The notes under the pieces were generated by a model. That model made no database searches, had not been told where the DNA came from, and saw only the letters and a program-made list of their open reading frames with translations. The position numbers were made by a program, and so were the translations under genes. A stretch of DNA of 64,000 bases from an uncultured Candidatus Peribacteria bacterium (GTDB taxonomy: Bacteria > Patescibacteriota > Gracilibacteria > UBA1369): assembly GCA_964346765.1 (NCBI GenBank), contig CAYFWB010000001.1:226087-290086 (forward strand), written 5' to 3'. Of the stretch, positions 2,877-62,500 are shown in pieces; position 1 is the first letter of the stretch; each line of letters opens with the position of its first letter.

Positions 2877-4241
2877 ATGGAAAGAACTGTCGGCAGTTTA
2901 TTTTTAAAGATTTTTTCAATCTTGTTTTTTGCGGCCTTCGCGGGTACTACCCTTTTTTTTGCCTACGGTTATCGGTTTGACGTAGAGGAGCGGATTTTGG
3001 AAAAAACGAGTATTATTGATGTTATCAATGAAGTGAGTGATGTATCACTTTTTTTGAATGGCAGAGAGGTGGTTCAGAATATTCCTTATCAGATAAAGGG
3101 GGTTCTGCCCGGTTTACATGATCTTAAACTTCAAAAAAAAGGTTTTTTGACGTGGGAAAGGACAGTTAAGGTGGAAGAGGATATTGTTACTATTGTTGTA
3201 GATGCTTTACCGGTACCGGCTGATTTAGATCTTTTTTATAAAGAAGTTTTGAAATTGAATACCGATGATGAAATATTTTTCGGAGATGATTTTATATTGT
3301 CTTATGCTTCTGGAGACAATGATGTTCGGCTGATTAATCTTTTTGATAATGGCAAAATTTTGGAGGAAATAATAAGTTTGTATCAGGAGGATTTTGAGAT
3401 TGTGGATGTTTATGCTAAGGAAAAATTTTTAATAACTTTCGGGGATCCGTATAGTGAATATAAAGCTGTTCTTTATGCTTATGTGAGTTTTGCTGAAAAG
3501 GAATTTGATTTATTCGCTCTGCCCGAAGAGGCTGAAAGAATACGTGTGGATGGTCGAAATAATTACGTTTTCTTTTTGCGTGAAGGGGATTTGTATGGCA
3601 TATCGTTTGATCGATTGAAAGAGAATGAGTTTGATTCAAATGAATATATGCCGATCAAGTCCGGTGTTGAAAAATTTGATATTGATGATAGGGGTAATCT
3701 TTTTTATATTTCGACAGGCATGCTCTATAAAAGTTGGTATAATGGTGAAAATGTGAAATTGTTGGATCAGCATCCTTTGAGGTATAAGAACCTTGCTATT
3801 AATTTTGTAGGTAACAATAAGTCGCTTGTAGTGCGGGCAAATGATGATACAAGGAAGTTGTTTTATTTAAGCGACAGTGGTGACGTTAGACTGTTATCTG
3901 AAAATTTATATGGTAACGCGGATATTAACGGCCGTAATGAAATGATATATAGTGATACCGAAGGGCATATTTTTCTTTTTGACGTTGTAGATCAAGAAAA
4001 GACGTATATTGAACAAATTGAATCTGAATTTGAGCTTATGGGGTGGTTTGGGGATGACGGTTATTTTGTTATTAAAAAAGGGACTACGGTTTACCTGCAT
4101 GATCGTTTTCACGTGGAACCGGTGGTTTTGTTTGATCAATTGGAGAGCGATTTTTCGGTACTTGTGGGAAGAGCTTTTTATACTTATAAAGACGGCATTT
4201 TAAGTCGCCTTTATTTTGATGAAGCCTATTTGAATGAATAA
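2877..4241 (+). CDS. membrane-anchored PEGA-domain-like protein, function unknown
   Basis: N-terminal TM helix followed by a PEGA-like beta segment (VSLFLNGREVV...GLHDLKLQKKGFLTWERTVKV). Start is contiguous with the greA stop. Confidence 0.6.
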   Translation: MERTVGSLFLKIFSILFFAAFAGTTLFFAYGYRFDVEERILEKTSIIDVINEVSDVSLFLNGREVVQNIPYQIKGVLPGLHDLKLQKKGFLTWERTVKVEEDIVTIVVDALPVPADLDLFYKEVLKLNTDDEIFFGDDFILSYASGDNDVRLINLFDNGKILEEIISLYQEDFEIVDVYAKEKFLITFGDPYSEYKAVLYAYVSFAEKEFDLFALPEEAERIRVDGRNNYVFFLREGDLYGISFDRLKENEFDSNEYMPIKSGVEKFDIDDRGNLFYISTGMLYKSWYNGENVKLLDQHPLRYKNLAINFVGNNKSLVVRANDDTRKLFYLSDSGDVRLLSENLYGNADINGRNEMIYSDTEGHIFLFDVVDQEKTYIEQIESEFELMGWFGDDGYFVIKKGTTVYLHDRFHVEPVVLFDQLESDFSVLVGRAFYTYKDGILSRLYFDEAYLNE

Positions 4242-55504: not shown

Positions 55505-55630
55505 GCACAACGTCCTAGACTTTGTGAAATTTGGTGGCGGTAAAATTTAGAGCGAAGCGACATACTTCCGCCAAATTTGGGTGAATGACTGAACGAAGTG
55601 AGGGAATGAACCGTATATACCTTGTTATGT
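55505..55630 (-). repeat. attC-like imperfect palindrome
   Basis: GCACAAC|GTCC...CCTT|GTTATGT, hairpin AAATTTGGTGGCGG/CCGCCAAATTT. A 37-nt block (55576-55612) is identical to 60445-60481. Confidence 0.6.
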
Positions 55631-56439: not shown

Positions 56440-57378
56440 TTAAAAAGTGGGGCTATCATACTTTACAGTTTTAGCTATTATCTGTTTTACTTCTACAGAA
56501 TCAGGATACCAGATCAAAGTATCTAAATCATGTTCAACAGAGTAGAGATCTAACCTCTTATCCAAATTTTCAAATTCAAAAAGTTCTGGATAAAATTCCT
56601 GAAACCAATCCAAAAGATTAGCGTAATCTTCTTTTTTTGCAAATTTTTCAAATTTTTCGGACATATACTTTTTCGGATACTCAACCATTCTTTTAATAAT
56701 ATCCAAAACGAAGTCCATTGAAGAAACTTCTGTCCTCTCAAAATCTAAAATGCCGACAATCTTTGTATCTTGAACTAGAATATTATCAAAGTGAGCATCC
56801 CAATATACTAGTGTTAGTTTTTGCTCCTTGAGAATATTATGATTGTCGTTAACAAAATTTTTGATGACTTTGATAAATTCAGAGGACAGAAGTTTTTTTT
56901 CTTCAATTTTCTTTAATGAGTTTTGAATTTGGTTGAGTATCTTGTCGTGCCAGTTGTCCGAAAAATTTACATCAAACTTTTGCAGAAATTCATCATATGG
57001 CGATTTGTTGATCACTTTGAGAATATTACAAAGCTGTTTGATGATGATTTTCCTCTGGTCGTTGTTCAATAAATGCCATTTTGAGTACAGATTATCGCCA
57101 TCAATCTTGGGGTAAATCATGAAAAATTTGTCATAAATACCCTTGGATTTATCAAAAACGCTGATTTTAGGAATAGGAATTTTATCTTTAAAAAAATTGT
57201 AGAAAAATACCTCAATTTCAAACTTTTCTTCATTAGTTATATCTTCACAAACTTTGAGAATATATTTATCGTTAATAATATAAACTTTATTTGTGAAGCC
57301 AATTTCAATTTTTTGAAAAGTTTTAACTTCTCCTAATTTATGTTCTTTGAAAATTTTTTCTACAGTTTTTTTTTCCAT
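56440..57378 (-). CDS. phosphotransferase enzyme family protein (APH/choline-kinase fold), cassette ORF
   Basis: Catalytic loop VYWDAHFDNILV (HxDxxxxN) and the metal-binding ILDFE motif. Very AT-rich. Confidence 0.8.
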   Translation of the reverse strand: MEKKTVEKIFKEHKLGEVKTFQKIEIGFTNKVYIINDKYILKVCEDITNEEKFEIEVFFYNFFKDKIPIPKISVFDKSKGIYDKFFMIYPKIDGDNLYSKWHLLNNDQRKIIIKQLCNILKVINKSPYDEFLQKFDVNFSDNWHDKILNQIQNSLKKIEEKKLLSSEFIKVIKNFVNDNHNILKEQKLTLVYWDAHFDNILVQDTKIVGILDFERTEVSSMDFVLDIIKRMVEYPKKYMSEKFEKFAKKEDYANLLDWFQEFYPELFEFENLDKRLDLYSVEHDLDTLIWYPDSVEVKQIIAKTVKYDSPTF

Positions 57379-57425
57379 ATAAATTGATAAGAGGTTAGAT
57401 TATATAAATTTTAGCCCCACTTTTT

Positions 57426-57478
57426 TCTATTGATAGTACATTGATTTTGGTGAGTAGCCACGAAGCGCTGTGTTGGGA
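57426..57478 (-). repeat. truncated attC-like element (right half only) abutting the IS110-family insertion
   Basis: GATTTTGGTGAGTAGCCACGAAGCGCTGT|GTTGGGA resembles the right halves of the other elements. The left RYYYAAC half is missing. Confidence 0.4.
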
Positions 57479-58659
57479 GTATAAGTCCCGTCGCATAACA
57501 TGTGGGCTCCTGAAATGTCTCAAAGAAGCGAATAGGCTAGTTGGGGTCGCATCCCCGAACTATATACGAACCTGCTTTTGACATGTCAAGGGGTCTTCGC
57601 AGCTACCACCTTTCTCTTTTTCTTCTCTCTTCTTTTTCTCTTTACACTTTATGCCCGATACAAGCTAAAAATCAAGCTCATGAAAAAATATATAGGTATT
57701 GATGTCTCCAAACGTGATTTTCACGTCTGTTTCAGTGAGAATGGAGCGGTTTCAAAATTTGAAAATTCTGTGGCTGGTATTCGTAATTTCCTTGATTATC
57801 TCAAGCAAAATCGTTTTTCCACCAAAAGCACGCTTATCGGTTTGGAATCAACAGGATCATATCATTTGCAACTTTCTTTTCTCGCAACAAAAGTGGGTTA
57901 TACGGTGAATGTTATCAATCCTTTAATCACTCGCAGGCAAAGCAAAAGTGTCGTTCGTAGCGTCAAAACGGACGCGCATGATTCCGTTCTCATTCGTCTT
58001 TGCGTTATTCAGGGCGTGGGTCATCCATTTCGTGATACCGCTGATTCTCTTGCCCTCAAGACTCTGGTTCGTCAAAGGGCGGGGCTTTCAATGTTCAGGT
58101 TACAGGCAAAATTGCGACAGGAAGAGGTTTGTTTACGAGAAAGCTATCTTGAAAATGACATTTCCGAAGTGAATAAAGAGCTTGTGGAATTTTTTGATGA
58201 AAAGATCCTGTTTCTGGATCGAAAAATCAGAAAATTCAATCCCGGATTACAAAAATTGTTGCAGTCAATTCCCGGGGTTGGTCCACAAACGGCTTCAACC
58301 TGCGTCGCGGAAATTGGCGATATCATGCGGTTTCCCCACGCAAAGGCTTTGACAGCCTATGTTGGGCTGGATTCGCGCGTGTATGAGAGCGGAACGAGTA
58401 TTCATGGCAAAGGATATATCTCCAAGCGTGGTAGCAAGATATTACGCACCCGTTTCTACAATGCCGCTTCTGTTGCCGTTCTACACGAAAATATATTCAG
58501 AGAGTTCTTTCTCAAAAAACGCTCGGAGGGAAAACCCTATCGCGTTGCCCTTTGCGCCGTGATGCACAAAATGGTGCACGTTGTTTTTGCAGTCTGGAAG
58601 CGTGTTTCACCTTTTATTAACGATGTATCTCAAAAAAGTTCTTGACGGGGATATCGCTA
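57475..58659 (+). mobile_element. IS110-family insertion sequence (approximate ends)
   Basis: Intact DEDD transposase and a ~200 nt structured non-coding leader. Subterminal inverted repeat AGTCCCGTC (57484-57492) / GACGGGGAT (58644-58652). It is flanked by GTTGG... on the left and GTTAGCT on the right, which are attC-like core sequences. Confidence 0.65.
57680..58645 (+). CDS. IS110-family (DEDD) transposase/recombinase
   Basis: I trimmed this to MKKYIGIDVSKRDF. It has LESTGSYH and KTDAHDS, plus the C-terminal Transposase_20 pattern (IPGVGPQTAS...YVGLDSRVYESGTS...ISKRGSK). Confidence 0.9.
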   Translation: MKKYIGIDVSKRDFHVCFSENGAVSKFENSVAGIRNFLDYLKQNRFSTKSTLIGLESTGSYHLQLSFLATKVGYTVNVINPLITRRQSKSVVRSVKTDAHDSVLIRLCVIQGVGHPFRDTADSLALKTLVRQRAGLSMFRLQAKLRQEEVCLRESYLENDISEVNKELVEFFDEKILFLDRKIRKFNPGLQKLLQSIPGVGPQTASTCVAEIGDIMRFPHAKALTAYVGLDSRVYESGTSIHGKGYISKRGSKILRTRFYNAASVAVLHENIFREFFLKKRSEGKPYRVALCAVMHKMVHVVFAVWKRVSPFINDVSQKSS

Positions 58660-59040
58660 GTTAGCTGAAGTTTGATCTATTTTAGATAAAAAGATTATAT
58701 TAAATACAATTGCTCCAAATGCTATTAACCCAACAAGGAAAGCAAATCCATAACCTACGCCGTGTCCTGGTTGACCTGGAAGTCCATTAGCTGAAATATT
58801 GTATATTTCTGCAAAAACCAAAAAGTACATGATCCAAGTCTGGCTTAAGTGCTTTTGTAGATTAGTTGATTCATTTTCTACGTTATTTATAAAGGTATTT
58901 GCTTTCCAGGCTGCGAATATTAATGTTGGGATGAAAATTAGAAATCCCATAAAGGGTATAATAGTAAAAATAATGAAACCTAATATTAGACCTATAAATA
59001 AGTAGATCCCGTAAATGATGGAATTTATATAATTTTTCAT
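58657..59040 (-). CDS. small polytopic membrane protein (127 aa), cassette ORF
   Basis: Four hydrophobic helices. The last sense codon AAC is the AAC of the cassette-end core (AGCTAAC). Confidence 0.5.
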   Translation of the reverse strand: MKNYINSIIYGIYLFIGLILGFIIFTIIPFMGFLIFIPTLIFAAWKANTFINNVENESTNLQKHLSQTWIMYFLVFAEIYNISANGLPGQPGHGVGYGFAFLVGLIAFGAIVFNIIFLSKIDQTSAN

Positions 59041-59066
59041 GTTGTGAGGGATTAAAATTAAATTTC

Positions 59067-59080
59067 AGATAACGTTTGCA
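59067..59080 (-). repeat. left stub of an attC-like element split by the IS4-like insertion
   Basis: AGATAAC|GTTTGCA. The element continues at 60408. Confidence 0.5.
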
Positions 59081-60407
59081 GCACTAGTGTTGCGTCAAAG
59101 CAAAAACTGAAATGAGTATTAAGCATACAATAAAGCAAAATGAGTTGTTTTGCAATTTTTCGATTTGAATGAAGGCTGGGATAATAAGAGTGTTTTTTAA
59201 TTAACTTACATATCCTTATGAATATCGATAGATACGTTTTTTTTCAGATTACTGATTTTATTTCAGTTTATGAATTCAATAGTTTTATCCAAAAATATCA
59301 TGGAAATAAAAAAATAAGAGAGCTCACTTGCCGCGATCAATTTCTATCGGTCATGTTCGCCCAACTTACAGGACTACAAAGTCTGAGAGGGATAGTTTTA
59401 TGCCTAAATGCACATGAATATCAGTTATATCACTTGGGTTTTCGTTCAAAAAAGTTTGTTCTTTCAACACTCTCACGAGCGAATCAATTTCGCGATTGGA
59501 GGATATGGTATGATTTTACGGAGCATCTTATTTTTAAGGCCAGAAAGCTATATATCAATGATAATGATTTTTCAATCGAACTCAAAAACTCGATTTATGC
59601 ATTGGATTCAACGGTTATTGATTTTTGTCTTGCAACATTCAAATGGGCTTATTTTGAACTTCAAAAATCAGCTGTTAAAGTCCGTACACAGCTTGATTTG
59701 AAAGGTAATATTCCTTCGTTTTTCTTCATAACTAAGGCTAAAGTTCATGATGTGAATTTTCTTGATCAGTTGGAATTTGAGAAGGACGCGATCTACATTA
59801 TGGATCGTTGATATTTCGATTTTGAGCGGCTTCATACTATTCATGCTCAAGGCGCGTTTTTTATTATCCGCTCCAAGGAAAGTTTATCGTTTCAACGGAT
59901 ATATTCTCATGCGGTTGAGAAAAATACGGGTTTACGGTGCGATCAAACGATTAAATTGAAACATTTTTACGCGCACAAACGGTATCCGGAAAACCTGCGT
60001 CGTATCAAATATTACGACCCTGTGTCCGATACGCATTATGTTTATCTTACAAACAATTTTGAGATTTCCGCGCAAACAGTAGCCGATCTTTACAGGCATC
60101 GCTGGCAGATTGAATTTTTTTTCAAATGGATGAAGCAGTATCTCAAAATTCAAGTTTTTTGGGGTTACTCATTCAACGCGGTGAAGACGCAAATCTGCAT
60201 TGCAATTGCAACGTTTTTGCTTGTGGCGATCATGAAAAAGGAACTCAAAATTAAGCGCGATCTCTACGAAATTCTACAAATCTTATTGGTCTCTCAATTT
60301 GAGAAAACCGCTTTAGCAAGCCTTTTGAGTCAGGCAACATCACAGAAACCGAATTCAGGTATTCAAGAACGCCTTCCCTTAGCCATTGTTTAATGCAACA
60401 CTAGTGC
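59081..60407 (+). mobile_element. IS4-family-like insertion sequence (~1.33 kb) inserted in an attC-like element
   Basis: 13-bp terminal inverted repeats GCACTAGTGTTGC (59081-59093) / GCAACACTAGTGC (60395-60407). A flanking direct repeat GTTTGC (59074-59079 and 60408-60413) is the candidate target duplication. Confidence 0.75.
59218..60393 (+). pseudogene. IS4-family DDE transposase (DUF4372-like N-terminus plus DDE_Tnp_1-like core) with a single in-frame TGA at 59809-59811
   Basis: One reading frame throughout. D (IYALDST), D (YIMDR*YFDF, where the stop replaces Gly of DRGY) and E (YRHRWQIEFFFKWMK) are all present. Confidence 0.8.
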
Positions 60408-60499
60408 GTTTGCCGATATGAGAAGTTGCGATCGAAGGGAGCAATTTGGGTGAATGACTGAACGAAGTGAGGGAATGAACCTCATAGTCTCTGTTGTCT
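60408..60499 (-). repeat. attC-like element, right part (after the IS4-like insertion)
   Basis: GTTTGCCGATATGAGAAGTTGCGATCGAAGGGAGCAATTTGGG...CTCT|GTTGTCT. Confidence 0.55.
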
Positions 60500-62378: not shown

Positions 62379-62500
62379 GCCTAACGTCCATGAATAACTG
62401 AAGTTTGGTGGCGGTATAATTTGAAGCGGAGCGACATACCTCCGCCAAATTTGGGAGTAGTGAACCGAAGGCGAACGGAACCGCAAAGTCTTTGTTATGT
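62379..62500 (-). repeat. attC-like imperfect palindrome
   Basis: GCCTAAC|GTCCATG..., hairpin AAGTTTGGTGGCGG/CCGCCAAATTT, then ...CTTT|GTTATGT. Confidence 0.6.

What the first reader, a model, noticed from the sequence alone, without database searches (positions are those of the whole stretch)
57426..58680. Intact IS110-family element inserted at an attC-like core, with a ~200 nt structured leader as a candidate bridge RNA
Seen in the sequence: a complete DEDD/Transposase_20 recombinase gene (57680-58645) is preceded by ~200 nt of comparatively GC-rich non-coding sequence (about 57479-57679). That leader contains several stems: GGGG-TCGCAT-CCCC at 57543-57556, and a perfect 12-nt palindrome TTGACATGTCAA at 57578-57589 embedded in CTTTTGACA/TGTCAAGGGG. 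A 40-nt CT-rich tract follows. Only ~14 nt follow the stop codon. A subterminal inverted repeat AGTCCCGTC / GACGGGGAT brackets the element. The left flank is the right half of an attC-like element ending ...GCGCTGT|GTTGGGA. The right flank is ...CGCTA|GTTAGCT, the core of the next cassette. The element therefore sits at or right next to the putative crossover triplet. Established knowledge: IS110-family recombinases lack DDE chemistry and pick their targets with a bridge RNA encoded in the long non-coding end. One branch of the family, the IS1111-attC group, is known to insert specifically into integron attC sites. Inference: this is an attC-targeting IS110 relative whose guide RNA should match the attC-like core. 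It is a natural programmable recombinase-target pair.
Basis: partly seen in the sequence, partly recalled or inferred. Interest (0 to 1): 0.6.

Follow-up and report, generated by a model that had tools for sequence, protein, structure and literature searches.

The report
RNA-guided IS110 element targeting attC sites
This is a jumping gene of the RNA-guided IS110 type in a tiny-genome (CPR) bacterium; its own guide ("bridge") RNA is matched to one end of integron-style cassette recombination sites, but the copy in this window has lost its left tip, so the case is a clear example of a known mechanism rather than a new one.

Summary
The recombinase gene (57680-58645) is a real, full-length IS110-family RNA-guided transposase gene.

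The upstream leader encodes a bridge RNA. Seventeen distinct relatives share a 5' stem-loop, a target-binding loop and a donor-binding loop, with compensatory base changes. Their guides covary with the flanking target and with the element's own ends.

The family inserts at the AAC/GTT triplet of attC-like repeats, at the end next to the upstream cassette's stop codon. It always lies antisense to the cassette genes. The known IS1111-attC group does the same, but this element has IS110-type architecture: non-coding region upstream, no subterminal inverted repeats, IS110 guide order.

The supposed "attC half" GCGCTGT|GTTGGGA lies inside the element and is its left target guide.

The true left end, seen in the second genomic copy and in all relatives, lies 22 nt further out (GTT|CGTATAATG...). 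With the right-end TTGACG it forms a TTGACG-17-TATAAT promoter across the circle junction.

The window copy lacks that tip and the adjoining attC body, so it is not intact. The second copy keeps both ends but has a 176-bp deletion in the gene.

Verdict: a new member of a known kind.

The parts
57430..58660 (+). IS110-type element, window copy 1. It is left-truncated and lacks the outer 22 nt (CGTATAATGCCAACGTACTT plus the core). A complete copy would be about 1255 bp.
   Evidence: Alignment with the second copy at C1:291843-292906 and with relatives. The bridge-RNA covariance model R1 hits window 57422-57577 at 148.9 bits.
57430..57439 (+). Remnant of the 5' stem-loop of the bridge RNA: loop plus 3' half (TTGATAGTAC). 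The 5' half (GTACT) is deleted.
   Evidence: Helix 1 of the consensus structure has 2 pairs with compensatory changes. Copy 2 reads GTACT-TTTGAT-AGTAC.
57452..57509 (+). Target-binding stem-loop. The outer stems are GAG/CUC and CCACG/UGUGG.
   Evidence: RNAalifold consensus and pair counts: helices 2-4 are 94-100% paired and 4 pairs show compensatory changes.
57463..57474 (+). Left target guide (LTG), AAGCGCUGUGUU. It has the same sequence as the top strand of the attC 3' arm plus the core (..CTGTG-TT).
   Evidence: Cognate LTG-target match runs average 6.06 nt against 4.41 for non-cognate pairs; 0 of 10,000 permutations reached the observed mean. L054 and L060 carry a reprogrammed LTG, UAUACCGCUGU, that matches their own flanks over 10-11 nt.
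57475..57489 (+). Distal hairpin of the target loop (GGGA-GUAUAAG-UCCC).
   Evidence: Three of its 4 pairs show compensatory changes across relatives.
57490..57499 (+). Right target guide (RTG), GUCGCAUAAC, the reverse complement of GTTATGCGAC. [quoted passage not shown]
   Evidence: Eight of 9 positions match the copy-2 and L021 targets (GTTATGTGA). L061 matches 8/8 contiguously and L053 6/6. Covariation overall is not significant, p = 0.16.
57526..57577 (+). Donor-binding stem-loop. The outer stem is AAGCG/UGCUU. The distal hairpin GGGGUCGCAUCCCC is at 57543-57556.
   Evidence: Helices 5 and 6 are 99-100% paired.
57531..57542 (+). Left donor guide (LDG), ..GGCUAGUU. It equals the right-end terminus GCTAG plus the core TT.
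   Evidence: Four LDG states (GCTAG, GTTAG, AGTAG, GGTAG) covary with the right-end terminus in 16 of 17 loci; permutation p = 0.002.
57557..57571 (+). Right donor guide (RDG), ..UAUACGAAC, the reverse complement of GTTCGTATA. That sequence is the true left-end terminus, present in copy 2 and relatives and absent from this copy.
   Evidence: The match to copy 2's left end is 9 nt long and contiguous. GTTCG and GTTCA covary between RDG and left end in L053, L059 and L063.
57578..57679 (+). Rest of the leader: a variable hairpin/palindrome (57578-57589), a strongly conserved CT-rich tract (57609-57643) and the translation start region, which has no obvious Shine-Dalgarno sequence.
   Evidence: Alignments: the CT tract is kept even in relatives whose protein is only 60% identical, while the palindrome is not.
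57680..58645 (+). IS110-family RNA-guided recombinase gene (321 aa).
   Evidence: Best solved relatives are IS621 (E = 1.4e-26) and ISCro4. The GID, ESTG, KTDxxD and YESGxS motifs align with IS621.
58642..58660 (+). Right end: the -35 box TTGACG (58642-58647, overlapping the stop codon) and the left-donor terminus GATATCGCTAG.
   Evidence: Conserved in all relatives. Joined to the full left end it gives TTGACG-17 nt-TATAAT.
58661..58671 (+). Core TT plus right target (TTAGCTGAAGT). This is the boundary of the next cassette (127-aa ORF, minus strand). On the cassette's sense strand it reads AGCTAA|C, an inverse-core box that overlaps the end of that ORF.
   Evidence: Right flanks of 20+ relatives read GTTRNNNGATG. 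ORF 58657-59040 on the minus strand.
57412..57429 (+). Left neighbour: the terminal inverted repeat of the APH cassette (TAGCCCCACTTTTT) plus TCTA, joined directly to the truncated IS. The attC body expected here is missing.
   Evidence: 56442-56455 is the reverse complement of 57412-57425. No attC motif lies between 57379 and 57429.

Best explanation
The element is an IS110-type (IS621-like) insertion sequence of a lineage found in CPR/Patescibacteria.

**Bridge RNA.** Its roughly 270-nt left non-coding end encodes a bridge RNA of about 155 nt. The RNA has a 5' stem-loop, a target-binding loop (LTG 57463-74, RTG 57490-99) and a donor-binding loop (LDG 57531-42, RDG 57557-71).

**Expression (inferred).** When the element excises as a circle, its right end (TTGACG) and its true left end (TATAAT) form a sigma-70 promoter across the junction. 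That promoter would drive the bridge RNA and the recombinase gene.

**Targeting (inferred from covariation).** The donor loop pairs with the junction ...GCTAG-TT-CGTATA.... The target loop pairs with ...CYGTG-TT-RNNNGA.... That sequence is the GTT/AAC triplet end of attC-like cassette recombination sites, at the end beside the preceding cassette ORF's stop codon. Insertion is orientation-specific and antisense to the cassette genes. It splits the R box of the attC.

**State of the two copies.**
- The window copy keeps an intact gene and both guide loops. It has lost the outer 22 nt of its left end together with the body of the attC it sat in, so it can probably no longer excise or use its junction promoter.
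- A second copy lies 8.6 kb away. It keeps both ends and the RNA, inside a complete attC, but has a 176-bp frameshifting deletion in the gene.

**Shown:** family membership, conserved RNA structure, guide-target and guide-donor covariation, insertion position and orientation.

**Inferred:** that the RNA is made, that it binds the recombinase, and that recombination happens as modelled.
For: **Protein**
- Pfam and NCBIfam 'IS110 family RNA-guided transposase', 195.7 bits against a cut-off of 140.
- Best PDB relatives are IS621 and ISCro4.

**Ends**
- Alignment of the two genomic copies and of about 30 metagenome or MAG relatives.
- Three contigs of relatives (L023, L115, L117) begin 1-2 nt before the GTT of the true left end.

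**RNA**
- RNAalifold on 17 distinct leaders gives the three-hairpin bridge architecture.
- 97.6% of cells are paired and 7 pairs carry compensatory changes. Slid controls pair at 32-48%.
- The covariance model finds both genomic copies and three other genomes of the phylum.

**Guides**
- LTG matches left target plus core, cognate 6.06 nt against non-cognate 4.41; 0 of 10,000 permutations reached the observed mean.
- L054, L060 and L066 carry the reprogrammed LTG sequence UAUACCGCUGU; in L054 and L060 it matches their own flanks over 10-11 nt (L066 repeats L060's guide and flank and was counted once).
- LDG shows four states that covary with the right-end terminus, p = 0.002.
- RDG and left end covary between GTTCG and GTTCA.
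- Guide order (bottom-strand match placed 5' of the top-strand match) is the order reported for IS110-type elements (PMC11187229, PMC11208160).

**Promoter**
- TTGACG-17 nt-TATAAT across the RE-LE junction.

**Target**
- Rejoined flanks fold as complete attC-like hairpins in at least 9 of 17 loci.
- Flanking ORFs are antisense to the IS in about 10 loci.
- A genome of the same family carries a true integron integrase (460 bits) with canonical cassette orientation.
Against: - No RNA or read data could be examined.
- The single-sequence fold is not better than shuffles, and no Rfam family matches.
- RTG-target covariation is not significant (p = 0.16). RDG variation is limited (p = 0.08) and may come from a single lineage.
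- No integron integrase is present in this assembly: best TIGR02249 hit 130 bits against a cut-off of 265. The repeats are therefore 'attC-like' by structure only.
- About 6-8 of the 17 relatives have only an attC-like 3' arm on their left.
- The window copy's left junction is unexplained. It rests on one data set, because the JGI contig L111 is identical to the window.
Confidence: 0.85

Rival explanations
1. The element's true left end is at 57430, as in the window copy. On this view the 22 nt CGTATAATG..GTACTT seen in other copies belong to a conserved target or landing pad, and the window copy is intact.
For: The window copy starts at 57430. Two metagenome contigs, L046 and L048, begin within 3 nt of the equivalent position.
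Against: - The RDG is complementary to GTTCGTATA over 9 nt, and the G/A change covaries.
- TATAAT in those 22 nt completes a 17-nt-spaced promoter with the right-end TTGACG.
- The 22 nt include the 5' half of a covarying stem-loop.
- No uninterrupted GTTCGTATAATG..GTAYYTT-GTT site exists in this genome.
- Contigs L023, L115 and L117 break at the GTT.
Confidence: 0.06
2. The leader is only a 5' UTR and promoter. The association with attC would then come from the protein's own DNA specificity, or from survival of insertions in a harmless site, without RNA guidance.
For: There is no expression data. RTG covariation is weak.
Against: Both the structure and three of the four guide-partner relations covary. 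The family is known to be RNA-guided (PMC11208160, PMC11187229). Insertion is exact to the nucleotide and fixed in orientation in more than 20 sites.
Confidence: 0.05
3. The unit is carried as an integron gene cassette and is placed by an integron integrase, which would explain why it is bounded by GTT triplets.
For: Both junctions lie at GTT/AAC triplets of R boxes.
Against: - There is no attC inside the unit; only 15 nt follow the stop codon.
- By cassette gene orientation the site is the inverse-core end, where the integrase does not cut.
- The guides match both the donor ends and the target.
- This assembly has no integrase.
Confidence: 0.03

Closest known systems
IS621 / ISCro4 (IS110 group, bridge-RNA-guided recombinases; Durrant et al. 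2024, PMC11208160; PDB 8wt6, 9t56)
   Same: - Same protein family and the same aligned catalytic motifs.
- Long left non-coding end.
- RNA built from a 5' stem-loop, a target loop and a donor loop.
- LTG and LDG have the top-strand sequence including the core; RTG and RDG are complementary to the top strand.
- A promoter is rebuilt across the RE-LE circle junction.
- Discontiguous RDG pairing in most relatives.
   Different: - About 30% protein identity at most.
- The core lies within GTT, not CT.
- The natural target is a structured repeat (the attC R box) rather than a REP-type or other site.
- Donor and target resemble each other (..TAG-TT.. against ..GTG-TT..).
IS1111-attC group (ISPa21, ISPst6, ISKpn4, ISPa25; Tetu & Holmes 2008; Post & Hall 2009; seekRNA shown in PMC11187229)
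   Same: Targets one fixed position near the 5' end of integron attC sites and lies antisense to the cassette genes (PMC3001079). RNA-guided DEDD recombinase.
   Different: - The non-coding region and guide RNA are upstream of the gene, not downstream.
- No subterminal inverted repeats.
- Guide order is IS110-type.
- Hosts are CPR bacteria rather than Pseudomonas or clinical class 1 integrons.

This is most likely an independent acquisition of the same target; no tree was built here.
Group IIC-attC introns (PMC3001079)
   Same: Another mobile element class that homes to the same end of attC, antisense to the cassettes.
   Different: It is a retroelement with an unrelated mechanism.

Membership tests
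IS110 family RNA-guided transposase (NCBIfam NF033542; Pfam PF01548 + PF02371) | Whole-protein score above the curated cut-off, with both domains present | tested here: met
   195.7 bits against a cut-off of 140. DEDD_Tnp_IS110 E = 7.8e-21 and Transposase_20 E = 7.6e-26.
IS110 family RNA-guided transposase | DEDD residues of the RuvC-like domain and the serine of the Tnp domain | tested here: met
   In the alignment to IS621, GIDvsk aligns with GIDtak, lESTG with iEATG, KTDahD with KTDtvD, and YESGtS with YESGsS. Which of these residues are catalytic is from memory of the IS621 structure papers.
IS110 type (as opposed to IS1111 type; Siddiquee et al. 2024) | The longer non-coding region lies upstream of the transposase gene | tested here: met
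   250 nt upstream (272 in complete copies) against 15 nt downstream.
IS110 type | The guide that matches the bottom strand lies 5' of the guide that matches the top strand | tested here: met
   The LTG has the top-strand sequence, so it pairs with the bottom strand, and it lies 5' of the RTG, which is complementary to the top strand.
IS1111-attC group | Non-coding region and seekRNA downstream of the gene | tested here: not met
   Only 15 nt follow the stop codon.
IS1111-attC group | Subterminal inverted repeats | tested here: not met
None found in the window copy or in L022.
IS1111-attC group | Insertion at a fixed position near the 5' end of attC, antisense to the cassettes | tested here: met
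   This is a shared behaviour, not evidence of membership.
Bridge RNA (IS621 type) | [quoted passage not shown] | tested here: met
   29 pairs, 97.6% paired, 7 pairs with compensatory changes.
Bridge RNA (IS621 type) | Internal-loop guides covary with the target and donor flanks | tested here: met
   LTG-LT: 0 of 10,000 permutations reached the observed mean. LDG-LD p = 0.002. RDG-RD covaries at one position. RTG-RT is inconclusive, p = 0.16.
Bridge RNA (IS621 type) | The RNA is expressed from the RE-LE junction promoter and binds the recombinase | not testable with these tools
   Only the promoter sequence TTGACG-17-TATAAT was seen.
Integron attC site / cassette array | Imperfect inverted repeats RYYYAAC...GTTRRRY with covarying inner arms, lying between short co-oriented ORFs | tested here: met
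   IntegronFinder's attC model was not available.
Integron attC site / cassette array | An integron integrase (IntI) adjacent to the array or elsewhere in the genome | tested here: not met
   The best TIGR02249 hit is 130 bits against a cut-off of 265. The array runs off the contig end at C1:295411. Genome G009, of the same family, has IntI at 460 bits.

The most novel reading that the evidence does not exclude
A CPR-restricted IS110-type lineage acquired attC (inverse-core) targeting independently of the IS1111-attC group.

This genome holds a natural split system. Copy 1 can supply the recombinase and the bridge RNA but has no usable left end. Copy 2 has both ends and the RNA but a broken gene, so it could be moved in trans.

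The break falls in the loop of the 5' stem-loop in copy 1. Two unrelated metagenome contigs end within 3 nt of the same position. This could mark a second, structure-dependent breakage or recombination point in these elements.
Probability: 0.2. Interest if true: 0.55.

Novelty: new member of a known kind. Interest (0 to 1): 0.4.

Why it matters
- It gives a clean natural example of guide-target and guide-donor matching in a bridge RNA. There is natural reprogramming among relatives, and the core lies in GTT rather than CT.
- At least two branches of the RNA-guided DEDD recombinases, plus group IIC introns, home to the same end of integron attC sites. Here this happens in streamlined CPR genomes.
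- Such insertions split the R box, so they should freeze the neighbouring cassettes in place. That bears on how cassette arrays decay.
- The mechanism itself is already established. Notes from this scan suggest that IS110-type attC hunters occur in many lineages, so the surprise is modest.

Tried and rejected
- **Rfam.** Neither the gathering threshold nor E <= 10 found any family in the leader.
- **Single-sequence folding.** It gave no signal, z = -0.29.
- **Empty sites.** A search for an empty site or syntenic cassettes in 40 relatives found nothing, because the cassettes are strain-specific.
- **Second assembly.** JGI contig L111 proved identical to the window, so it gives no independent support.
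- **Tetu & Holmes 2008** (PMC2447020) is not held. The IS1111-attC insertion position was taken from PMC3001079 and PMC11187229.
- **Explanations for the copy-1 left junction.** I considered integrase-mediated deletion, microhomology, insertion of an aberrantly excised circle, and inversion. None fits the sequence exactly, so the junction stays unexplained.
- **Strand assignment.** I first read the plus strand as the attC top strand, which would place the IS at the R' G|TT. I rejected this because of ORF orientation in about 10 loci and the canonical integron in G009.
- **Phylogeny.** No tree against named IS1111-attC proteins was built, because their sequences were not at hand.
Full report
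**What is in the window**

ORF 57680-58645 (+, 321 aa) carries both IS110 domains. It passes NCBI's model for 'IS110 family RNA-guided transposase' at 195.7 bits against a cut-off of 140. Its best solved relatives are the bridge recombinases IS621 (E = 1.4e-26) and ISCro4. The GID, ESTG, KTDxxD and YESGxS motifs align with IS621. Plasmid-borne relatives reach at most 34% identity. The closest homologues, at 81-86%, come from Peregrinibacteria and other CPR MAGs and from groundwater-type metagenomes. A large group at about 60% identity comes from Parcubacteria. The host genome is 1.4 Mb in 19 contigs.

- The genome holds a second copy at C1:291843-292906, 8.6 kb to the right and just outside the window.
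- The two copies are identical from window position 57430 onward. GCGCTGT|GTTGGGA' (57465-57478) is therefore internal.
- In copy 2 and in every relative, the conserved sequence runs 22 nt further left than in the window copy. It reads ...xTG-TT-CGTATAATGnnnnnGTAyyTT-, then the TTGATAGTAC-equivalent.
- The right end is ...TTGACGGGGATATAGCTAG-TT-RNNNGATG in more than 20 independent sites.
- Three contigs of relatives start 1-2 nt before that left GTT (L023, L115, L117). This is what assembly breaks at a repeat boundary look like.
- Joining the right end to the full left end gives TTGACG, 17 nt, TATAAT. This is the junction promoter described for IS110 and IS1111 circles (PMC11208160, PMC11187229).
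- No uninterrupted GTTCGTATAATG...GTT site exists in this genome. The 22 nt therefore belong to the element, not to the target.

**The leader is a bridge RNA**

- One sequence alone folds no better than shuffles, and Rfam has no match.
- Seventeen distinct leaders were aligned. Their consensus has three parts: a 5' stem-loop, a stem-loop with an internal loop and distal hairpin, and a second stem-loop of the same kind.
- On that structure 97.6% of cells pair and 7 of the 29 pairs show compensatory changes. Structures slid by 1-3 columns pair at only 32-48%.
- In window coordinates the internal loops are LTG 57463-57474, RTG 57490-57499, LDG 57531-57542 and RDG 57557-57571.

**The guides match their partners as in the IS621 model**

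- LTG (..GCUGUGUU) equals left target plus core (..CTGTG-TT).
  - Cognate match runs average 6.06 nt against 4.41 for non-cognate pairs; 0 of 10,000 permutations reached the observed mean.
  - L054, L060 and L066 have a different LTG, UAUACCGCUGU. In L054 and L060 it reads their own flanks over 10-11 nt. L066 repeats L060's guide and flank and was counted once.
- LDG (..GCUAGUU) equals the right-end terminus plus core. Four states (GCTAG, GTTAG, AGTAG, GGTAG) covary in 16 of 17 loci (p = 0.002).
- RDG (UAUACGAAC) is the complement of GTTCGTATA, the true left terminus. The GTTCG/GTTCA change covaries in L053, L059 and L063.
- RTG (GUCGCAUAAC) complements GTTATGnGA. It fits 6-8 of 9 positions in most sites, but its covariation is not significant (p = 0.16).
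- The guide order is the one reported for IS110-type elements and the reverse of IS1111 (PMC11187229).
- A covariance model of the RNA finds both genomic copies and three other genomes out of 401 sampled across the phylum. One of them (L102) shows further compensatory changes and a 7-nt match between its LTG and its flank.

**What is targeted**

- The right part of the window and the rest of the contig form an array of short minus-strand ORFs. They are separated by imperfect repeats of 95-126 nt with RYYYAAC...GTTRRRY ends, covarying inner arms and a conserved central hairpin.
- Copy 2 sits in a complete repeat of this kind.
- Rejoining the two flanks of relatives restores complete attC-like hairpins in at least 9 of 17 loci. 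The other loci show only the 3' arm.
- In about 10 loci the flanking ORFs are all antisense to the IS.
- This assembly has no integron integrase. A genome of the same family has one at 460 bits, and its cassettes follow the canonical layout: ORF, then attC, with R' next to the following start codon.
- By that layout the IS splits the inverse-core (R'', ...AA|C) box. This is the end of attC next to the preceding ORF's stop codon. It is not the R' G|TT where the integrase cuts.
- The position and antisense orientation match what is reported for IS1111-attC elements and group IIC-attC introns (PMC3001079).
- The architecture nonetheless fails the IS1111 tests. The non-coding region is upstream and there are no subterminal inverted repeats. 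I read this as convergence on the same target. I could not build the tree that would prove it.

**State of the two copies**

- The window copy (57430-58660, core TT at 58661-58662) has an intact gene, both guide loops and an intact right junction. That junction sits on the boundary of the 127-aa cassette, whose stop codon is now supplied by the IS end.
- On its left the copy lacks three things: the 22-nt tip, the core, and the whole body of the attC.
- The IS abuts TAGCCCCACTTTTT-TCTA. This is the terminal inverted repeat of the APH cassette (56442-56455 is its partner) followed by what looks like a truncated ..TCTAAC box.
- The lost tip holds the promoter -10 box, the site read by the RDG and the 5' half of the first stem-loop. 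The copy is therefore probably immobile and cannot use its own junction promoter.
- I could not fit the junction to an integrase cut, to microhomology or to an aberrant IS event.
- The k-mers across the junction must exist in the reads. The only other assembly holding it is identical, so it adds no independent support.
- Copy 2 keeps both ends and the RNA. It has a 176-bp deletion, a frameshift, that removes the first two catalytic acidic residues.

**Novelty**

Bridge and seek RNAs (2024) and attC-hunting IS1111 elements (2008-2009, 2024) are established. The papers I could search describe no IS110-type, upstream-RNA lineage that targets attC, and none in CPR bacteria. However, unverified notes of this scan report IS110-type attC hunters in at least 43 other genomes. 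None is sequence-related to this one. I therefore file it as a new member of a known kind, of moderate interest.

Noticed in passing
G000:C1:291843-292906 (L004 3844-4907), outside the window: A second copy of the IS sits in a complete attC-like site. It keeps both ends and the bridge RNA but has a 176-bp frameshifting deletion (window 57747-57922 equivalent). A cluster of SNPs lies just before the deletion. Together with copy 1 it looks like a helper plus passenger pair.
   Followed up: partly
window 59061-60495: An IS4-like element sits inside another attC-like repeat, whose halves lie at 59061-59100 and 60443-60495. Its transposase is split into two ORFs: 59218-59811 (DUF4372) and 59956-60393 (DDE_Tnp_1).
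   Followed up: partly
window 57609-57643: A G-free CT-rich tract of 35-45 nt lies between the bridge RNA and the start codon. It is almost unchanged even in relatives with only 60% protein identity, and no Shine-Dalgarno sequence precedes the ATG. Possible roles are translation enhancer, Rho loading site or spacer; none was tested.
   Followed up: no
L046:1 and L048:1 (metagenome contigs), compared with window 57430: Two contigs from different metagenome assemblies begin within 3 nt of the position where the window copy's left end is broken. That position is the loop of the 5' stem-loop. This hints at a recurrent breakpoint.
   Followed up: partly
window 55505-55625 and 62379-62494: Some attC-like repeats are chimeric. 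The 3' inner arm at about 62480 (CGCAAAGTCTTT) complements the 5' inner arm of the repeat at about 55515 (TAGACTTTGTG), not its own. This suggests past recombination between repeats that share the conserved central hairpin.
   Followed up: no
window 57507-57519 with 58157-58169; L022 2828-2849 with 3469-3490: The linker between the two bridge-RNA loops is complementary to a stretch inside the recombinase ORF, in both this element and an 81%-identical relative. This may be a long-range RNA pairing, or it may simply reflect shared conservation.
   Followed up: no
G009:C21:2373-3356 (L110): A genome of the same family carries a bona fide integron integrase (460 bits) with canonical cassettes on a 4.1-kb, GC-richer contig. 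Integrons therefore do occur in this CPR family, unless that contig is contamination.
   Followed up: partly
G000:C1:295355-295411: The contig ends inside an attC-like repeat, so the cassette array continues beyond the assembly. Any integrase or attI would lie there.
   Followed up: no
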